IMG/VR virus record: IMGVR_UViG_2737471853_000012
Span: 1-21,314 of that record
From: a virus
Taxonomy: Duplodnaviria > Heunggongvirae > Uroviricota > Caudoviricetes
Reading direction: 5' to 3' (one strand)
Length of the DNA stretch: 21,314 nt
In this document: one piece after another, positions 5,320 through 9,167 of the stretch
How the letters are laid out: the number at the start of each line of letters is the position of its first letter
Position numbering within the stretch: the stretch's first letter is position 1
Position numbers and translations under genes: made by a program
Notes under the pieces: model-generated
The model's input: the letters and a program-made list of their open reading frames with translations, nothing else
Databases searched by the model: none
Told to the model about the DNA's origin: nothing

Positions 5320-5529
5320 TCACCCCCATATACGTTGACGAAGTGATCGCGGAGTATGCTCCGGGCGAACACAAACCGGCAGCCGGGCGCTGACCGTCCA
5401 ACTCAGATAATCCGCGTTAAGGCTTTTCTCTGTGACAATGCCTCGCGCCTGATATCTGGACACTAACTGTTCGGCCTGCTCGGTTGTGCAGTCGGGATGC
5501 TGGAACCATGAGTATTTCATCGCCATCAC
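5320..5529 (-). CDS. Hypothetical nin-region protein
   Basis: 69-aa ORF in an operon-like chain between the 198-aa gene and the ybcO-like gene; no recognised motif. Confidence 0.4.
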   Translation of the reverse strand: MMAMKYSWFQHPDCTTEQAEQLVSRYQARGIVTEKSLNADYLSWTVSARLPVCVRPEHTPRSLRQRIWG

Positions 5530-6122
5530 CCCGCAAAGCTCAGCAGCTGACTGGCGGCGTTTTCAGCCTCAGCCGGCGAGTGGAACTTGCGACGCAGAAT
5601 GTAGTTCCAAAGCACATTCAGCACTGATTTGTAGACGCCGTTAAACTGGCTGTCGTCCATGCTGGCGAAGGAGATCGACTTTGCGACACGACGACGGCTG
5701 CCGTCAGGCATCTGGTATTCGTCATAAAAGCCAGCCTGAATGGTTGCCCACTCGCGGAAGGATTCGAAGTGTTTCAGCAGCGCCATATCGCGGGAACGGG
5801 ATATACCGACCGAGGAGAGATACATCTCCGCGGCATTCTGGAGTGCAGCGCGCTGATCGAGGTCGGATGAGAGAAAGTCGATAAAACCGGATATGAGGGT
5901 ACGCTCCGCGGGCTCAATGAGACCACCGGAAGGCGTCCAGTAGTGATACCCGAGAGTCAGAAGTTTGAAGAACTTCTTGTGGAATGCGTAATTCCTGGGC
6001 TTGCGGAACTCACCGCAAAGCAGTTGCCCTACGGGGATAAGTTGCAGGTATTCGCTGGTTCCCGGCTCTGCGGGAATCAGTACGTTTTGATAACTTTTCT
6101 CAAATTGCAGTGTTTGCGCCAT
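5526..6122 (-). CDS. Conserved lambdoid nin-region protein (family not confidently identified)
   Basis: 198-aa ORF with normal GC content; stop overlaps next gene start. Confidence 0.5.
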   Translation of the reverse strand: MAQTLQFEKSYQNVLIPAEPGTSEYLQLIPVGQLLCGEFRKPRNYAFHKKFFKLLTLGYHYWTPSGGLIEPAERTLISGFIDFLSSDLDQRAALQNAAEMYLSSVGISRSRDMALLKHFESFREWATIQAGFYDEYQMPDGSRRRVAKSISFASMDDSQFNGVYKSVLNVLWNYILRRKFHSPAEAENAASQLLSFAG

Positions 6123-6212
6123 GTGTCCCCACTTGGCGCCGGGGTAAAGTTGTCAGTTGTCCAGACTGACCAAGTAATTATGGATGGCTGATGCTTATAA
6201 ATCAATGGACAA

Positions 6213-6491
6213 CTAATGGGTAAATTCCTTGGGAACAGGAGATATACCAGATAGAGAAATTAAATCAGGCAACTCATTGCCATGTAAAGTTCGCCCAACA
6301 CCAACCGCGTAGACTTTGCCATCTACTGGAATCAAATGAACATCATATGAACGATTGAATTGTGCGTTTGGCGGCCGATGACTACTGCCTACTGATGATT
6401 CAAAAATAGTCAACCTGCTTTTTAATTCTGTATCTTCATGGATTTCTCCATCACGCCCGTATCCTACTAGCAAATATTGAATTTTATTCAT
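6213..6491 (-). CDS. Small hypothetical protein, AT-rich, apparent paralog of the 6771-7019 product
   Basis: 92-aa product from ATG 6489-6491 preceded by GAGGGTGAA; the longer ORF-track start would overlap the upstream gene. Shares YxLL..G and DVH(L/I)..D.G..V segments with the 82-aa protein. Confidence 0.45.
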   Translation of the reverse strand: MNKIQYLLVGYGRDGEIHEDTELKSRLTIFESSVGSSHRPPNAQFNRSYDVHLIPVDGKVYAVGVGRTLHGNELPDLISLSGISPVPKEFTH

Positions 6492-6510
6492 TTCACCCTC
6501 GATTAATCGG

Positions 6511-6768
6511 CTATTTCTTAGAGTTCTGCTCGGCCATTTCAATATAGCGCGGATCGGATGCCTTGGGGAGTTGGATGCTCTGCTCGCGGTAGTAGCGGAC
6601 GCGCTCCATGAAATACTCACGTAGATGCTCAGGCTGCTCTCTGGCCACCACTTCGGCGACAACCGGCATGTTCAGGCGCTCTTTGTAAGCGACGCCGGAC
6701 GCTGCCAGGTCGACGTTGACCTTGTCCTGATCGTCTTTCGATTTGGCTGCAATGTTGAATTTACTCAT
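6511..6768 (-). CDS. Hypothetical protein
   Basis: 85-aa ORF tightly packed between the two paralogous small genes; charged, no recognised motif. Confidence 0.45.
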
Positions 6769-6770
6769 GA

Positions 6771-7019
6771 TTAATCATCTACATATCGCACATCCAGAAC
6801 CACGTTTCCATCAAGGTCCTTTCTCACAATATGAACATCTTCCTTAAATGGCGGCTTGGTTTGCTCGATAACAGTCACTGTAGCTGTGCCAATTTTGTTC
6901 TGATTCTCATCCAGGACAATGTAACTTCTATCTATGCGGCTTGCTAAATGCCCCCTCCTGACTGTTCCATCGTCCAAAAGAGTGTAGCCAGCTTCAAGGT
7001 TCATTTTTTCTTTAAACAT
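6771..7019 (-). CDS. Small hypothetical protein, AT-rich, apparent paralog of the 6213-6491 product
   Basis: 82-aa ORF with strong RBS GAGGGGGA 4-5 nt before ATG 7017-7019; preceded by an inverted repeat and a TATATAAT -10-like element. Confidence 0.5.
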
Positions 7020-7095
7020 AAATCCCCCTCAGGTTATGAAGGGGATTATATATCACTAACAGATTAGCTGCGCGGCTTTGCGTTCTGCGGGGGAT

Positions 7096-7218
7096 TTAGC
7101 CACGAATCGCACTCCACGCCAGATTGATTAATGACTCCCAGGCAATATAAACCCGGATACCAGCAACCAGGCCGAAGCCAATCACCATGGCATAAAGCAG
7201 AGCATTGCACTTGGTCAT
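7096..7218 (-). CDS. Small membrane peptide (40 aa)
   Basis: MTKCNALLYAMVIGFGLVAGIRVYIAWESLINLAWSAIRG; ATG 7216-7218 overlaps the upstream stop (TGATG) and is preceded by GGAGGTGA; single predicted TM helix. Confidence 0.4.
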   Translation of the reverse strand: MTKCNALLYAMVIGFGLVAGIRVYIAWESLINLAWSAIRG

Positions 7219-7685
7219 CACCTCACCTCCTGCGGCGCTGCTGGCAGCGGCATCCAGTGGGTGATTTTCTCTGGCTCCCAGCACTGCCAATGACCATACA
7301 TGGCATGATGAACTCGCTTATACATTCCGTCGAATGTGAGAACAGATACATCATTCTCCGGCATCCGCTCGCTTACCGGAATCCATTTACCCGGCACGGT
7401 GGCAGGGTCACTGCCGGGAGACTGCGGGGCGGCTGCGAGCTCACGAACAATGCGCTTAATGCTGTCGATACGGTCATCATCAACAGGGTCTACCGTTTCA
7501 ATCCGATCAAGCATCATCAGCGCTGCGTTTGCTTTATCGTTGCATGTCCAACCATCCGGAATCACCTGAGAGTTGCCAGCCTCATAAGCTACGCGCATCC
7601 AGTGATAAAAAGCTTCAGAGGTAACACAGCCGCAATCAACCTCAATGACGCCGTTTTGTTGCGATAACCATTCTTCGAATTTCAT
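7218..7685 (-). CDS. DUF551-like phage protein
   Basis: 155-aa ORF with Trp-rich C-terminus ending HWMPLPAAPQ, typical of DUF551 proteins in lambdoid nin regions as recalled. Confidence 0.5.
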   Translation of the reverse strand: MKFEEWLSQQNGVIEVDCGCVTSEAFYHWMRVAYEAGNSQVIPDGWTCNDKANAALMMLDRIETVDPVDDDRIDSIKRIVRELAAAPQSPGSDPATVPGKWIPVSERMPENDVSVLTFDGMYKRVHHAMYGHWQCWEPEKITHWMPLPAAPQEVR

Positions 7686-8257
7686 GACTTACCTCCGTTG
7701 AGCATGGCGGCGCGTAGAACCCGCGCAATGCGTTCACGAAGTTGCTGTGTCCCATGATATTCAATCGCAATATCGCGCAACTGATTAACCAGTTCGCGGA
7801 TTTGATGGTCTTTCGGCACTACCGTCGCTGGCTGCGCGTGGCGACAGAGAAGCACATCTCCCATCTCTTCGCGCTCAGGAGGCCACACATCGGCATCAGC
7901 ACCACTTAGGAGATAATCAAGGTTAGCCAGGTCAATTACCGCCACCGGCTCGCTGTCCGCTACCGGCTGCGCTGGCGGCATATCTGGACCTTTGCGAATA
8001 GCTTTTGCCAGCTCGATAGGGTCATCGTAAAGCCAGTCTCCGGTTTCAGGGTGGTTGGCTTCCGCCAGTTTGGCGGCCCACTCCAGACCGTCTTTGTGTC
8101 CCTGTAGGTAGTCGATAGGCAAACACTCAGACTCGCTGTCCATTGCGGCCAGAGCCATGCGGGCTAGTTCCTGCACCTCTTCGTGCGTACACTTCACCCA
8201 TGCGCCAGGATTTGCTATCTGAGCTATTCGCTCTCTGGTTATGGTTGATTTGGTCAT
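7682..8257 (-). CDS. Hypothetical phage protein
   Basis: 191-aa ORF, operon-embedded with 4-nt overlaps to both neighbours. Confidence 0.55.
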   Translation of the reverse strand: MTKSTITRERIAQIANPGAWVKCTHEEVQELARMALAAMDSESECLPIDYLQGHKDGLEWAAKLAEANHPETGDWLYDDPIELAKAIRKGPDMPPAQPVADSEPVAVIDLANLDYLLSGADADVWPPEREEMGDVLLCRHAQPATVVPKDHQIRELVNQLRDIAIEYHGTQQLRERIARVLRAAMLNGGKS

Positions 8258-8877
8258 TTGTCGGCCCCATCGCGCAGCTGCTGGGCGAATAATCTTGCTT
8301 GCTTAGCCGTGTATTTCAGCGTCTCAGAAGACTCCCCGTGATCGTAAAACTCCTCTTCATCACCAACTTTTTCTGTCATCGCTGCAAACTCTTCCACCCC
8401 ATCAGCCTTAATCCCGACTACGAAGCGATCTGTGGCGGGGGTTTCTACTGCTGTCAAATTAGCCCGGTGGTCATTCCATCCGCGCGCATATATCGGGTTT
8501 ATAGACATGCCGTCCTTCACGCAATACCGCTGTCCACCACGATTGATAACTTCAATTTCTTCCGCAACGGCTGCCTTCAGCGCCACATTCTCCGCAGACA
8601 GCTGCTCAACCTGAGACTTAAGCGCCTGAATTGCCGTATCCCGTAGAGCCCGCAACGAGCGAATTTCGTTGGCTACCGACGCAGGGCCATCCTCGCCGCA
8701 AGCTTCCATCATGGTCTTTTCCCATACAAGCTCTGCATTCAGCGCCGCATCACGCTCGCCAGCAACACGAATCGCCCAGCGCATAACGTCCAGATACTTC
8801 TGCTCTCTGATCGACAGCTCGCCTGCGCTCTCCAAGAAGGCGATGAGCTCGTTTACTGCCTGTAGTGTGATAGTCAT
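8254..8877 (-). CDS. Hypothetical phage protein with predicted coiled-coil region
   Basis: 207-aa product from internal ATG 8875-8877 (ATGA overlap with ren stop); heptad-like segment IRSLRALRDTAIQALKSQVEQLSAENVALKAAVAEE. Confidence 0.55.
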   Translation of the reverse strand: MTITLQAVNELIAFLESAGELSIREQKYLDVMRWAIRVAGERDAALNAELVWEKTMMEACGEDGPASVANEIRSLRALRDTAIQALKSQVEQLSAENVALKAAVAEEIEVINRGGQRYCVKDGMSINPIYARGWNDHRANLTAVETPATDRFVVGIKADGVEEFAAMTEKVGDEEEFYDHGESSETLKYTAKQARLFAQQLRDGADK

Positions 8878-9167
8878 GCTGATGTTCTCCCGTAAACAGC
8901 CAGTACCCGCTTCATCGCCGGGCTTTGCCGACACTCGTTAAAAATCTGATTGGTGCTCTTCCTGCCTGAAATTTCTTCTTCAGTGGCCAACCGGTAGTAA
9001 ACCGTACGCCACACCCGAGCTTCCGCTACCAGCACCCCCTGCTTTGCCAGGATATTTGCAGCCTGGTTGATGCAGGTATGCGTCATTCCTGAAGCCGCGG
9101 CGACATCTGGAGAGCTGCAGGTTTTATGCGTTTTCAGGTAGTTCAGAATTGCGTCTTTGCCTGTCAT
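8874..9167 (-). CDS. ren: Ren-like protein (lambda Ren family, associated with resistance to Rex exclusion)
   Basis: Product from ATG 9165-9167 (MTGKDAILNYLKTHKTCSSPDVAAASGMTHTCINQAANILAKQGVLVAEARVWRTVYYRLATEEE...ECRQSPAMKRVLAVYG) matches lambda Ren in pattern and lies immediately after the P-like gene, as in lambda. Identity is from memory, not a search. Confidence 0.6.
   Translation of the reverse strand: MTGKDAILNYLKTHKTCSSPDVAAASGMTHTCINQAANILAKQGVLVAEARVWRTVYYRLATEEEISGRKSTNQIFNECRQSPAMKRVLAVYGRTSA

What the first reader, a model, noticed from the sequence alone, without database searches (positions are those of the whole stretch)
6213..7060. AT-rich insertion in the nin region carrying two diverged paralogous small proteins flanking an 85-aa gene
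The 92-aa and 82-aa products share recognisable segments (YxLL..G.....S.L.I and PP...DVH(L/I)...D.G..V..V), suggesting an ancient tandem duplication. Both are AT-rich while the 85-aa gene between them has normal GC. The cluster has its own strong RBSs and is preceded on the minus strand by an inverted repeat (AAATCCCCC 7020-7028 / GGGGGATTT 7083-7091) and a TATATAAT -10-like element near 7050, so it may be independently transcribed. Small accessory gene sets in nin regions are frequent carriers of anti-defence or host-takeover functions.
Basis: seen in the sequence. Interest (0 to 1): 0.55.

Follow-up and report, generated by a model that had tools for sequence, protein, structure and literature searches.

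The report
Phage theta gene with two orphan neighbours
The 85-aa gene is a prophage copy of the theta subunit of the host DNA polymerase III (like phage P1 Hot), and the two AT-rich small genes beside it are not duplicates of each other but unrelated, independently swappable genes of unknown function, one of which belongs to a family that is repeatedly found next to phage theta genes.

Summary
The three minus-strand genes are real: C 6213-6491 (92 aa), B 6511-6768 (85 aa), A 6771-7019 (82 aa). A and C are AT-rich (GC3 41% and 28%; B 70%).

The paralogy claim fails.

B is a Hot-like DNA polymerase III theta homologue (PF06440 E=3.6e-35; PDB 1SE7 E=1.6e-33).

The segment is mosaic. Only 5 of 5426 complete E. 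coli genomes carry the whole cluster. Among 80 viral contigs with theta at least 87% identical, 5 carry A, about 11 carry a C-family gene, and 2 carry both.

A is a narrow orphan family (phrog_28488). It is predicted to be all-beta, always abuts the theta start, and has a conserved hairpin covering its ribosome-binding site and start codon.

C belongs to a wider uncharacterised Enterobacterales family (phrog_23640). In 10 of 14 lineages it lies within one gene (about 1 kb at most) of a theta gene or remnant, in both nin-type and integrase-proximal regions. C identity does not track theta identity.

No sigma-70 promoter is called at 7020-7095. Overall this is an ordinary phage accessory hotspot around a known gene, with one modest new lead: the theta-C linkage.

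The parts
6213..6491 (-). Gene C, 92 aa. Member of an uncharacterised Enterobacterales phage family (phrog_23640) with the motifs YLLIGxGxDGEI ... YAVG ... EIxxLIxSSGVxPIP. AT-rich (GC 39%, GC3 28%) with its own SD (GAGGGTGA).
   Evidence: ORF. phrog_23640 E=1e-58, and all 13 aligned members hit it. No Pfam, NCBIfam or PADLOC hit. Distant homologues found by exhaustive HMM search and alignments A3/A7. Linkage to theta genes. The AF2 model is low confidence, pLDDT 49.6.
6511..6768 (-). Gene B, 85 aa: phage-encoded homologue of the DNA polymerase III theta subunit (HolE), closest to phage P1 Hot. Normal GC (54%, GC3 70%). It starts 2 nt after the stop of gene A and has no strong SD of its own.
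   Evidence: PF06440 E=3.6e-35, 120 bits against a cut-off of 34.6. NF008207 106.1 bits against a cut-off of 97. PDB 1SE7/2IDO (Hot) E=1.6e-33 over residues 3-76; E. coli theta 1DU2 E=5.3e-20. 88-90% DNA identity to theta genes in loci whose flanking genes differ.
6771..7019 (-). Gene A, 82 aa, acidic (pI 5.3). Narrow orphan family (phrog_28488) seen in Klebsiella, Raoultella and E. coli prophages. Predicted all-beta (six strands). Always sits directly upstream of theta.
7021..7047 (-). Hairpin in the leader of gene A (AAUCCCCUUCA-UAACC-UGAGGGGGAUU, extended by GAUAUA/UAUGUU). It pairs the Shine-Dalgarno sequence and start codon of gene A. It also scores as terminator-like (stem followed by UUAUGUUUAAA).
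   Evidence: Inverted repeat I7. Terminator-like hit. RNA fold -29.5 kcal/mol, z=-3.2. The same hairpin is predicted in all five A-bearing loci at -9.9 to -26.3 kcal/mol, whereas the start regions of C and theta are unstructured. The leader is conserved while upstream genes differ.
7068..7098 (-). Conserved junction sequence at the upstream edge of the A cassette. It is shared with loci that lack gene A.
   Evidence: BLAST boundaries at 7068 in L002, L003 and L004. Inverted repeat I1 and direct repeat D2.
6757..7067 (.). Mosaic cassette carrying gene A and its leader. Replaced by unrelated small genes in relatives, for example a basic phrog_16632/14068 protein and a 65-aa phrog_38858 protein in L002 and L003.
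6182..6504 (.). Mosaic cassette carrying gene C. Replaced by 42 nt in L003, by tiny ORFs in phage RothC (L004), and by a 28%-identical C-family allele in L002.
6177..6205 (-). Sigma-70-like element TTGATT-17-CATAAT between gene C and the DUF1367 gene. Both hexamers and the spacing are kept in L002, L003 and L004 although the spacer sequence differs.
   Evidence: The number of promoter-like hits in the region is not above chance (2 found against 2.9 expected).
7096..7218 (-). Neighbouring 40-aa hydrophobic ORF (MTKCNALLYAMVIGFGLVAGIRVYIAWESLINLAWSAIRG), upstream of the cluster and part of the conserved right flank.
   Evidence: Annotated as WP_001548460.1 in L001. A similar ORF is annotated in L002. 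No family hit.

Best explanation
The region is a mosaic accessory segment of the early-right operon of a lambdoid, Klebsiella-type prophage living in E. coli. It lies between the replication/ren/DUF551 block and the DUF1367-YbcO-RusA-Q block. It is built around a conserved Hot-like theta gene.

By homology to P1 Hot and E. coli HolE, the theta protein binds and stabilises the epsilon (DnaQ) proofreading subunit of the host Pol III core, which lambdoid phages use for their own replication.

The two AT-rich genes beside it are two unrelated, separately exchangeable cassettes, not paralogues.
- Gene A is a narrow orphan all-beta protein. Its translation start is buried in a conserved hairpin. Its stop codon lies 2 nt before the theta start, so theta is probably translated by coupling to whatever gene sits upstream.
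- Gene C is one allele of a very diverse small-protein family that travels preferentially with theta genes, on either side and in two kinds of phage region. It also exists without theta and does not co-vary with it.

Inferred, not shown: all three genes are expressed as passengers of the antiterminated early transcript, and A and C are small non-enzymatic binding proteins. For C, the linkage points to host DNA replication or repair as the likeliest sphere of action. Theta, DinI, Dam methylases, Lar and TraR-like genes share these slots.
For: - Theta identity. Hot function as reported in PMC7556043, which cites Chikova & Schaaper 2005 and 2007. Theta stabilises epsilon (PMC13220808).
- Prophage context and gene order.
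- Not paralogues. Different predicted secondary structure.
- Mosaic boundaries at about 6182, 6504, 6757 and 7068.
- Rarity of the full cluster (5 of 5426 genomes).
- Independent assortment in 80 theta loci (A in 5, C family in about 11, both in 2).
- More than 15 unrelated small-gene families occupy the two slots.
- C family found without reference to theta. Theta or a theta remnant lies within one gene (about 1 kb at most) in 10 of 14 lineages. These sit in nin-type regions (window, L002, L113) and in integrase-proximal regions (L012/13, L016/19, L110; L024 is also outside a nin-type region, among Dam and Lar genes).
- C-family genes are AT-rich relative to the adjoining theta in all nine theta-C loci measured (eight lineages).
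- No co-variation between theta and C (Spearman -0.03).
- Hairpin over the translation start of gene A.
Against: - No experiment and no informative fold match exists for A or C. Their roles are therefore inferred from context only.
- Most theta genes (about 85% of the 80 loci) have no C-family neighbour. 4 of 14 C lineages showed no theta (L020, L022, L023, L115). The same C allele occurs with and without theta (L110 vs L108; L113 vs L114).
- The theta-C linkage could therefore be co-residence in a small recombination hotspot rather than shared function.
- The 80 theta loci are the closest relatives only and are not phylogenetically independent.
- The hairpin could be an intrinsic terminator of the tR2 type rather than a translational control element.
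Confidence: 0.8

Rival explanations
1. One reading: A and C are ancient tandem paralogues that flank an inserted 85-aa gene, and together they form one AT-rich, independently transcribed anti-defence or host-takeover cassette.
For: Both are small, AT-rich and have strong SD sequences. They share the tripeptide DVH followed by L/I. A -10-like TATAAT is conserved upstream of A.
Against: No significant similarity by BLASTP, Smith-Waterman shuffles or hhalign. The motifs do not match as written. DVH is not conserved within the C family. A is all-beta while C is predicted beta-beta-alpha-beta-beta-alpha. A and C occur separately in most loci. The promoter scan is negative at 7020-7095.
Confidence: 0.03
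2. Gene C is a dedicated functional partner of phage theta. For example, it could bind epsilon, the theta-epsilon complex or another replisome part, so that theta plus C form a two-protein module that re-tunes the host Pol III for phage replication.
For: 10 of 14 C lineages lie within one gene (about 1 kb at most) of theta or a theta remnant. This holds in two different kinds of phage neighbourhood and in both orders. In six of the pairs the theta-C gap is a tight 11-19 nt.
Against: Theta pairs that are 91-96% identical carry C proteins only 24-43% identical, so there is no co-variation. About 85% of close theta genes lack C. C occurs without theta, and the same C allele occurs with theta or with a pyocin cassette in its place. 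Intergenic sequences between theta and C are not conserved.
Confidence: 0.2
3. A and/or C are fast-evolving anti-defence or superinfection-exclusion proteins that merely occupy the same hotspot as theta. Their diversity would reflect an arms race with variable host or competitor targets.
For: Extreme allelic diversity of C beside a conserved theta. Low GC typical of exchanged accessory genes. Slot neighbours include Lar, Dam, toxin-antitoxin and pyocin genes. Patchy distribution.
Against: No match to any defence-related model in PADLOC, which does not cover anti-defence. No literature on these proteins. The model does not by itself explain why C stays beside theta when the pair sits in a different genome region.
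Confidence: 0.3
4. A and C are non-functional or spurious ORFs in AT-rich filler DNA.
For: No known domains. The C model has low confidence.
Against: Both families keep intact full-length reading frames. C homologues go down to 17-30% identity with conserved motifs. Both have strong SD sequences, both have PHROG families, and A gives a confident beta-sheet model.
Confidence: 0.03

Closest known systems
Bacteriophage P1 Hot (homologue of theta; PDB 1SE7, complex with epsilon186 2IDO)
   Same: Gene B aligns over residues 3-76 at E=1.6e-33 and has the same length class (85 vs 83 aa). It is phage-encoded. The expected mode of action is the same: binding and stabilising the host DnaQ proofreading subunit.
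   Different: It sits in the early-right (nin-type) operon of a lambdoid prophage rather than among P1 late genes. It is flanked by exchangeable orphan genes. Epsilon binding has not been tested for this protein.
E. coli HolE (theta subunit of the Pol III core; PDB 1DU2, 2AE9, 2AXD)
   Same: Same Pfam family PF06440 and NCBIfam NF008207. E=5.3e-20 to 1DU2.
   Different: Closer to Hot than to HolE. It has the longer C-terminal tail typical of the phage forms ([19 protein letters not shown]).
Lambda/P22 nin-region accessory genes and phage 'morons'
   Same: Small genes of deviant base composition inserted between conserved early genes. They are patchily distributed and exchanged at conserved junctions.
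   Different: Classical morons carry their own promoter and terminator. No promoter is called here, and the genes are co-oriented with the operon. None of NinB-NinH matches A or C.
PHROG families phrog_23640 (gene C) and phrog_28488 (gene A)
   Same: Full-length matches, E=1e-58 and 4e-58.
   Different: Both families are annotated 'unknown function'. The theta linkage of phrog_23640 is not recorded there, and no paper in the searched library mentions these families or the accession numbers tried.

Membership tests
DNA polymerase III theta / Hot family (gene B) | Match to Pfam PF06440 above the gathering score | tested here: met
   120 bits against 34.6, E=3.6e-35, profile positions 1-68 of 70
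DNA polymerase III theta / Hot family (gene B) | Match to NCBIfam NF008207 above the curated cut-off | tested here: met
   106.1 bits against 97
DNA polymerase III theta / Hot family (gene B) | Near full-length sequence similarity to solved Hot and theta structures | tested here: met
   1SE7/2IDO E=1.6e-33 (residues 3-76); 1DU2 E=5.3e-20
DNA polymerase III theta / Hot family (gene B) | Binds the epsilon (DnaQ) N-terminal domain; substitutes for holE in vivo | not testable with these tools
   Needs a binding or complementation assay. Reported for P1 Hot in the literature cited by PMC7556043.
Paralogous pair (A and C from one duplication) | Pairwise sequence similarity above chance | tested here: not met
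   BLASTP finds no alignment at E<=100. Smith-Waterman p=0.24, or 0.08 with soft gaps.
Paralogous pair (A and C from one duplication) | Profile-profile similarity of the two families | tested here: not met
   hhalign probability 0.13% (A1 vs A2) and 0.10% (A3 vs A1), with 4-7 aligned columns
Paralogous pair (A and C from one duplication) | Same fold | tested here: inconclusive
   A is all-beta, pLDDT 74.7. C is beta-beta-alpha-beta-beta-alpha but pLDDT is only 49.6. The models differ, but the C model is unreliable.
Paralogous pair (A and C from one duplication) | Co-occurrence as a pair in relatives | tested here: not met
   Both are present in only 2 of 80 theta loci. A occurs alone in 3, and a C-family gene occurs without A in about 9.
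phrog_23640 (gene C family) | Full-length HMM match | tested here: met
   E=1e-58 over positions 1-92 of 92. All 13 members of alignment A3 match.
phrog_28488 (gene A family) | Full-length HMM match | tested here: met
   E=4e-58 over positions 1-82 of 82
Phage moron (autonomous accessory cassette) | Base composition different from the neighbours | tested here: met
   GC3 is 28% (C) and 41% (A), against 70% (theta) and 65% (DUF1367)
Phage moron (autonomous accessory cassette) | Own promoter | tested here: not met
   No sigma-70-like site is called at 7020-7095. Only a -10-like TATAAT is present, with no -35. A consensus scan is not a functional test.
Phage moron (autonomous accessory cassette) | Own terminator | tested here: inconclusive
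   The only terminator-like hairpins are one before the start of gene A (7047-7021) and a weak one inside gene C (6281-6268)
Known anti-phage defence systems (PADLOC) | Match to a defence-protein model | tested here: not met
   No hit for A, C or the 40-aa ORF. Theta gives only a chance-level GajA hit, E=0.029.
Known anti-defence proteins | Homology to a characterised anti-defence protein, or activity against a defence system | not testable with these tools
   No anti-defence library is available. There is no Pfam or NCBIfam hit and no literature hit.

The most novel reading that the evidence does not exclude
The phrog_23640 family (gene C) is a previously unrecognised companion of phage-encoded theta subunits. 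It would be a small protein that acts on the host Pol III core or replisome together with, or downstream of, Hot-like theta. This would give temperate enterobacterial phages a two-component handle on host replication fidelity or processivity. Its extreme allelic diversity would reflect adaptation to phage-specific replication proteins or to host countermeasures.
Probability: 0.15. Interest if true: 0.6.

Novelty: new member of a known kind. Interest (0 to 1): 0.3.

Why it matters
Why phages carry a copy of the non-essential theta subunit has been an open question since P1 Hot was described. This locus shows that in lambdoid prophages of Klebsiella and E. coli the theta gene is a conserved anchor inside a hotspot of exchangeable small genes. 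It also shows that one uncharacterised family (phrog_23640) follows theta into different genome regions. If that family proves to act on the replisome, it would offer an experimental way into what phage theta is for. If it does not, the region is simply a well-delimited example of cassette exchange in a nin-type region. The practical lesson is that short shared motifs read by eye were not evidence of paralogy.

Tried and rejected
- Paralogy of A and C was tested four ways (BLASTP, Smith-Waterman with shuffles, two hhalign runs, literal motif regexes). All were negative.
- A profile search of the C family against PDB sequences gave only weak hits to designed armadillo repeats in which no matched stretch passes on its own. 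I treat them as spurious.
- Pfam, NCBIfam and PADLOC gave nothing for A or C. Rfam gave nothing in the window.
- The search for related loci with the C-family alignment failed because no stretch was conserved enough. tblastn of two C proteins against isolated phage genomes gave one hit and none. P0028 gave no viral contig.
- The repeat-protein hits P0021 and P0031-33 in the exhaustive search match only parts of the C profile, as many short stretches. I judged them unrelated.
- Literature searches for the accession numbers, the PHROG ids, and theta plus anti-defence found nothing. The two Chikova & Schaaper papers are not held and are cited second-hand.
- Theta-C co-variation was tested and not found. 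The theta-C intergenic sequence is not conserved.

Full report
**1. What is there**

The window is part of a lambdoid prophage. Read on the minus strand, the order is:
- cI/cro/cII, replication genes and ren;
- DUF551-type genes and a 40-aa hydrophobic ORF (7096-7218);
- the cluster in question;
- DUF1367 (5526-6122), DUF1364/YbcO, RusA, YlcG, Q and lysis genes.

A 99.9% identical copy is annotated in five complete E. coli genomes, for example NZ_CP029242. The cluster consists of three minus-strand genes: A (6771-7019, 82 aa), B (6511-6768, 85 aa) and C (6213-6491, 92 aa).

The compositional claim holds. GC/GC3 are 42%/41% for A, 54%/70% for B and 39%/28% for C, against 51% for the window.

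A and C have strong Shine-Dalgarno sequences. B starts 2 nt after the stop of A and has none of its own (sequence).

**2. The middle gene**

B is a homologue of the DNA polymerase III theta subunit:
- Pfam PF06440 at 120 bits against a cut-off of 34.6;
- NCBIfam NF008207 at 106 bits against a cut-off of 97;
- closest solved structure is phage P1 Hot, 1SE7/2IDO, E=1.6e-33, ahead of E. coli theta, E=5.3e-20.

Theta stabilises the epsilon proofreading subunit (PMC13220808). P1 Hot is reported to substitute for theta and to be expressed in lysogeny and lytic growth (Chikova & Schaaper 2005 and 2007, as cited in PMC7556043).

**3. The paralogy claim**

It fails every test I could run:
- BLASTP gives no alignment at E<=100.
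- The Smith-Waterman score is 27 against 24.1 +/- 4.2 for shuffles, p=0.24. With soft gap penalties p=0.08.
- hhalign of the two family profiles gives 0.13% probability, and 0.10% with a much deeper C profile.
- The two motif strings match neither protein as written. What is shared is three tripeptides, and 78% of shuffles do as well.
- 'DVH' is not conserved within the C family.
- A is predicted as six beta strands (pLDDT 74.7). C is predicted as beta-beta-alpha-beta-beta-alpha (pLDDT 49.6, unreliable).

**4. Mosaic structure and variable cargo**

Comparison with other prophages shows four features:
- a conserved left flank, up to about 6181-6186;
- a conserved theta gene, about 6505-6756, at 88-90% DNA identity;
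- a conserved right flank, from 7068;
- unrelated DNA in 6182-6504 (C cassette) and 6757-7067 (A cassette).

In L003 the C cassette is replaced by 42 nt. In phage RothC it is replaced by tiny ORFs. In L002 it is replaced by an 86-aa gene.

Only 5 of 5426 E. coli genomes hold the whole cluster, while 214 match part of it.

I then took the 80 IMG/VR contigs whose theta is at least 87% identical. A occurs in 5, always abutting the theta start. A C-family gene occurs in about 11. Both occur in only 2. More than 15 unrelated small-gene families fill the two slots. 'Variable cargo' is therefore right, but it is two independent cargos.

**5. Gene A**

- It is a narrow family. All homologues in a 5.8-billion-cluster database are at least 74% identical, and they come from Klebsiella and Raoultella. 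One viral contig (L093) carries a more divergent copy. The family is phrog_28488, function unknown.
- Fold searches return only generic beta-sheet matches.
- Its roughly 80-nt leader is conserved in all five A-bearing loci, even though the upstream genes differ.
- The leader folds into a hairpin (7047-7021) that pairs the SD and the AUG. The window leader folds at -29.5 kcal/mol, z=-3.2. The same architecture is predicted in all five loci, while the starts of C and theta are open.
- The same hairpin also scores as terminator-like.
That arm lies in the junction sequence shared with loci that lack A.
- TATATAAT is conserved, but there is no -35 and no promoter call.

**6. Gene C**

The word-indexed search found only three close clusters. 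An exhaustive profile search then found 87-97-aa relatives down to 28% identity. Further variants came from the loci themselves and from a second indexed search.

All are 'hypothetical' proteins of Enterobacterales. They have no Pfam domain, and all belong to phrog_23640.

The striking feature is context. Of 14 lineages whose neighbourhood I could read, 10 have a theta gene or theta remnant within one gene (about 1 kb at most):

| Lineage | Locus | Position relative to theta |
|---|---|---|
| Window type | window | adjacent |
| L002 type | L002 | adjacent |
| P0020 | L015 | adjacent |
| P0024 | L012, L013 | adjacent |
| P0030 | L024 | adjacent |
| P0023 type | L110 | adjacent |
| P0022 | L016-L019 | one gene between |
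| P0045 | L113 | one gene between |
| P0019 | L005 | about 900 bp downstream of a decayed theta |
| Klebsiella phage ST974-OXA48phi18.2 | L014 | C upstream of a truncated theta |

The pairs occur in nin-type regions. They also occur in regions next to integrase, xis or Dam genes.

Against a tight functional coupling:
- About 85% of close theta genes lack C.
- Four C lineages showed no theta.
- The same C allele occurs with and without theta (L110 vs L108; L113 vs L114, where a pyocin/immunity cassette takes the place of theta).
- The intergenic sequences are not conserved.
- Theta identity and C identity are uncorrelated, Spearman -0.03. Theta pairs that are 91-96% identical carry C proteins 24-43% identical.
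- C-family genes are AT-rich relative to the adjoining theta in all nine theta-C loci measured, which represent eight lineages.

**7. Interpretation**

Shown:
- B is a Hot-like theta.
- A and C are unrelated to each other.
- The segment is a mosaic hotspot with two independently exchanged cassettes.
- C belongs to a diverse family linked to theta.
- The leader of A has a conserved hairpin that occludes its translation start.

Inferred:
- The genes are expressed from the early-right transcript.
- Theta translation is coupled to the upstream gene.
- A and C are small binding proteins.

For C, I rate a role in the DNA replication/repair sphere as the likeliest direction. A dedicated theta-partner role gets about 0.2, and an anti-defence or exclusion role about 0.3. 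Neither is testable here.

**8. Novelty and score**

Phage theta homologues are known. The two flanking families are already catalogued as unknown-function PHROGs. The mosaic pattern is typical of nin-type regions. What is new is modest: the recurrent theta/phrog_23640 linkage, and the occluded start of gene A. Overall interest is 0.3.

Noticed in passing
window 6177-6205 (minus strand): A sigma-70-like element TTGATT-17-CATAAT sits between the stop of gene C and the start of DUF1367. Both hexamers and the 17-nt spacing are kept in L002, L003 and L004 although the spacer sequence differs. It is followed by a conserved GTCAG...CTGAC inverted repeat. It may be an internal promoter for the DUF1367/NinB-Q block.
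   Followed up: partly
L002 3188-3370; L110 2553-2759; 9 of the 80 IMG/VR theta loci (e.g. L042): A basic small-protein family (phrog_16632 / phrog_14068, C-terminus ...RGRTAD, function unknown) occupies the slot of gene A in many theta loci. In L002 and L110 its stop codon overlaps the theta start. It looks like a second theta-linked family, possibly translationally coupled.
   Followed up: partly
L114 1-2041 versus L113 1812-2069: Two Klebsiella aerogenes prophages share the same C-family gene, a 61-aa gene and NinB-RusA-Q. One has theta. The other has a pyocin-S-type toxin plus a colicin/pyocin immunity gene in its place.
   Followed up: no
L005 2978-4000 (Citrobacter braakii prophage): A theta pseudogene (in-frame stops and a frameshift, then truncation) is followed by about 900 bp without credible ORFs. 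The C homologue and DinI come next. The nature of the 900-bp insert is unknown.
   Followed up: partly
L014 3329-3787 (Klebsiella phage ST974-OXA48phi18.2): The CDS annotated as 'DNA polymerase III subunit theta' has only the first ~28 residues of theta. These are fused to an unrelated C-terminal part (152 aa in all). It is probably a recombination product and is mis-annotated.
   Followed up: no
window 7096-7218 (minus strand): A 40-aa hydrophobic ORF (predicted single membrane helix) lies directly upstream of the cluster. It is annotated in RefSeq, a similar ORF is annotated in L002, and it has no family assignment.
   Followed up: no
L023 2501-2785: One C-family member (P0029, 94 aa, GC 54%) sits alone in what looks like a non-phage chromosomal neighbourhood (TehB-like, DUF1869, metallo-beta-lactamase-fold, FrmR/RcnR-type repressor). 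This suggests a stranded or domesticated copy.
   Followed up: no
window 7218-8934 versus L001 9119-10778: RefSeq marks the DUF551-region genes of the identical E. coli prophage as partial pseudogenes. The window nevertheless shows three intact overlapping ORFs (7218-7685, 7682-8257, 8254-8934). The annotation is probably over-fragmented.
   Followed up: no
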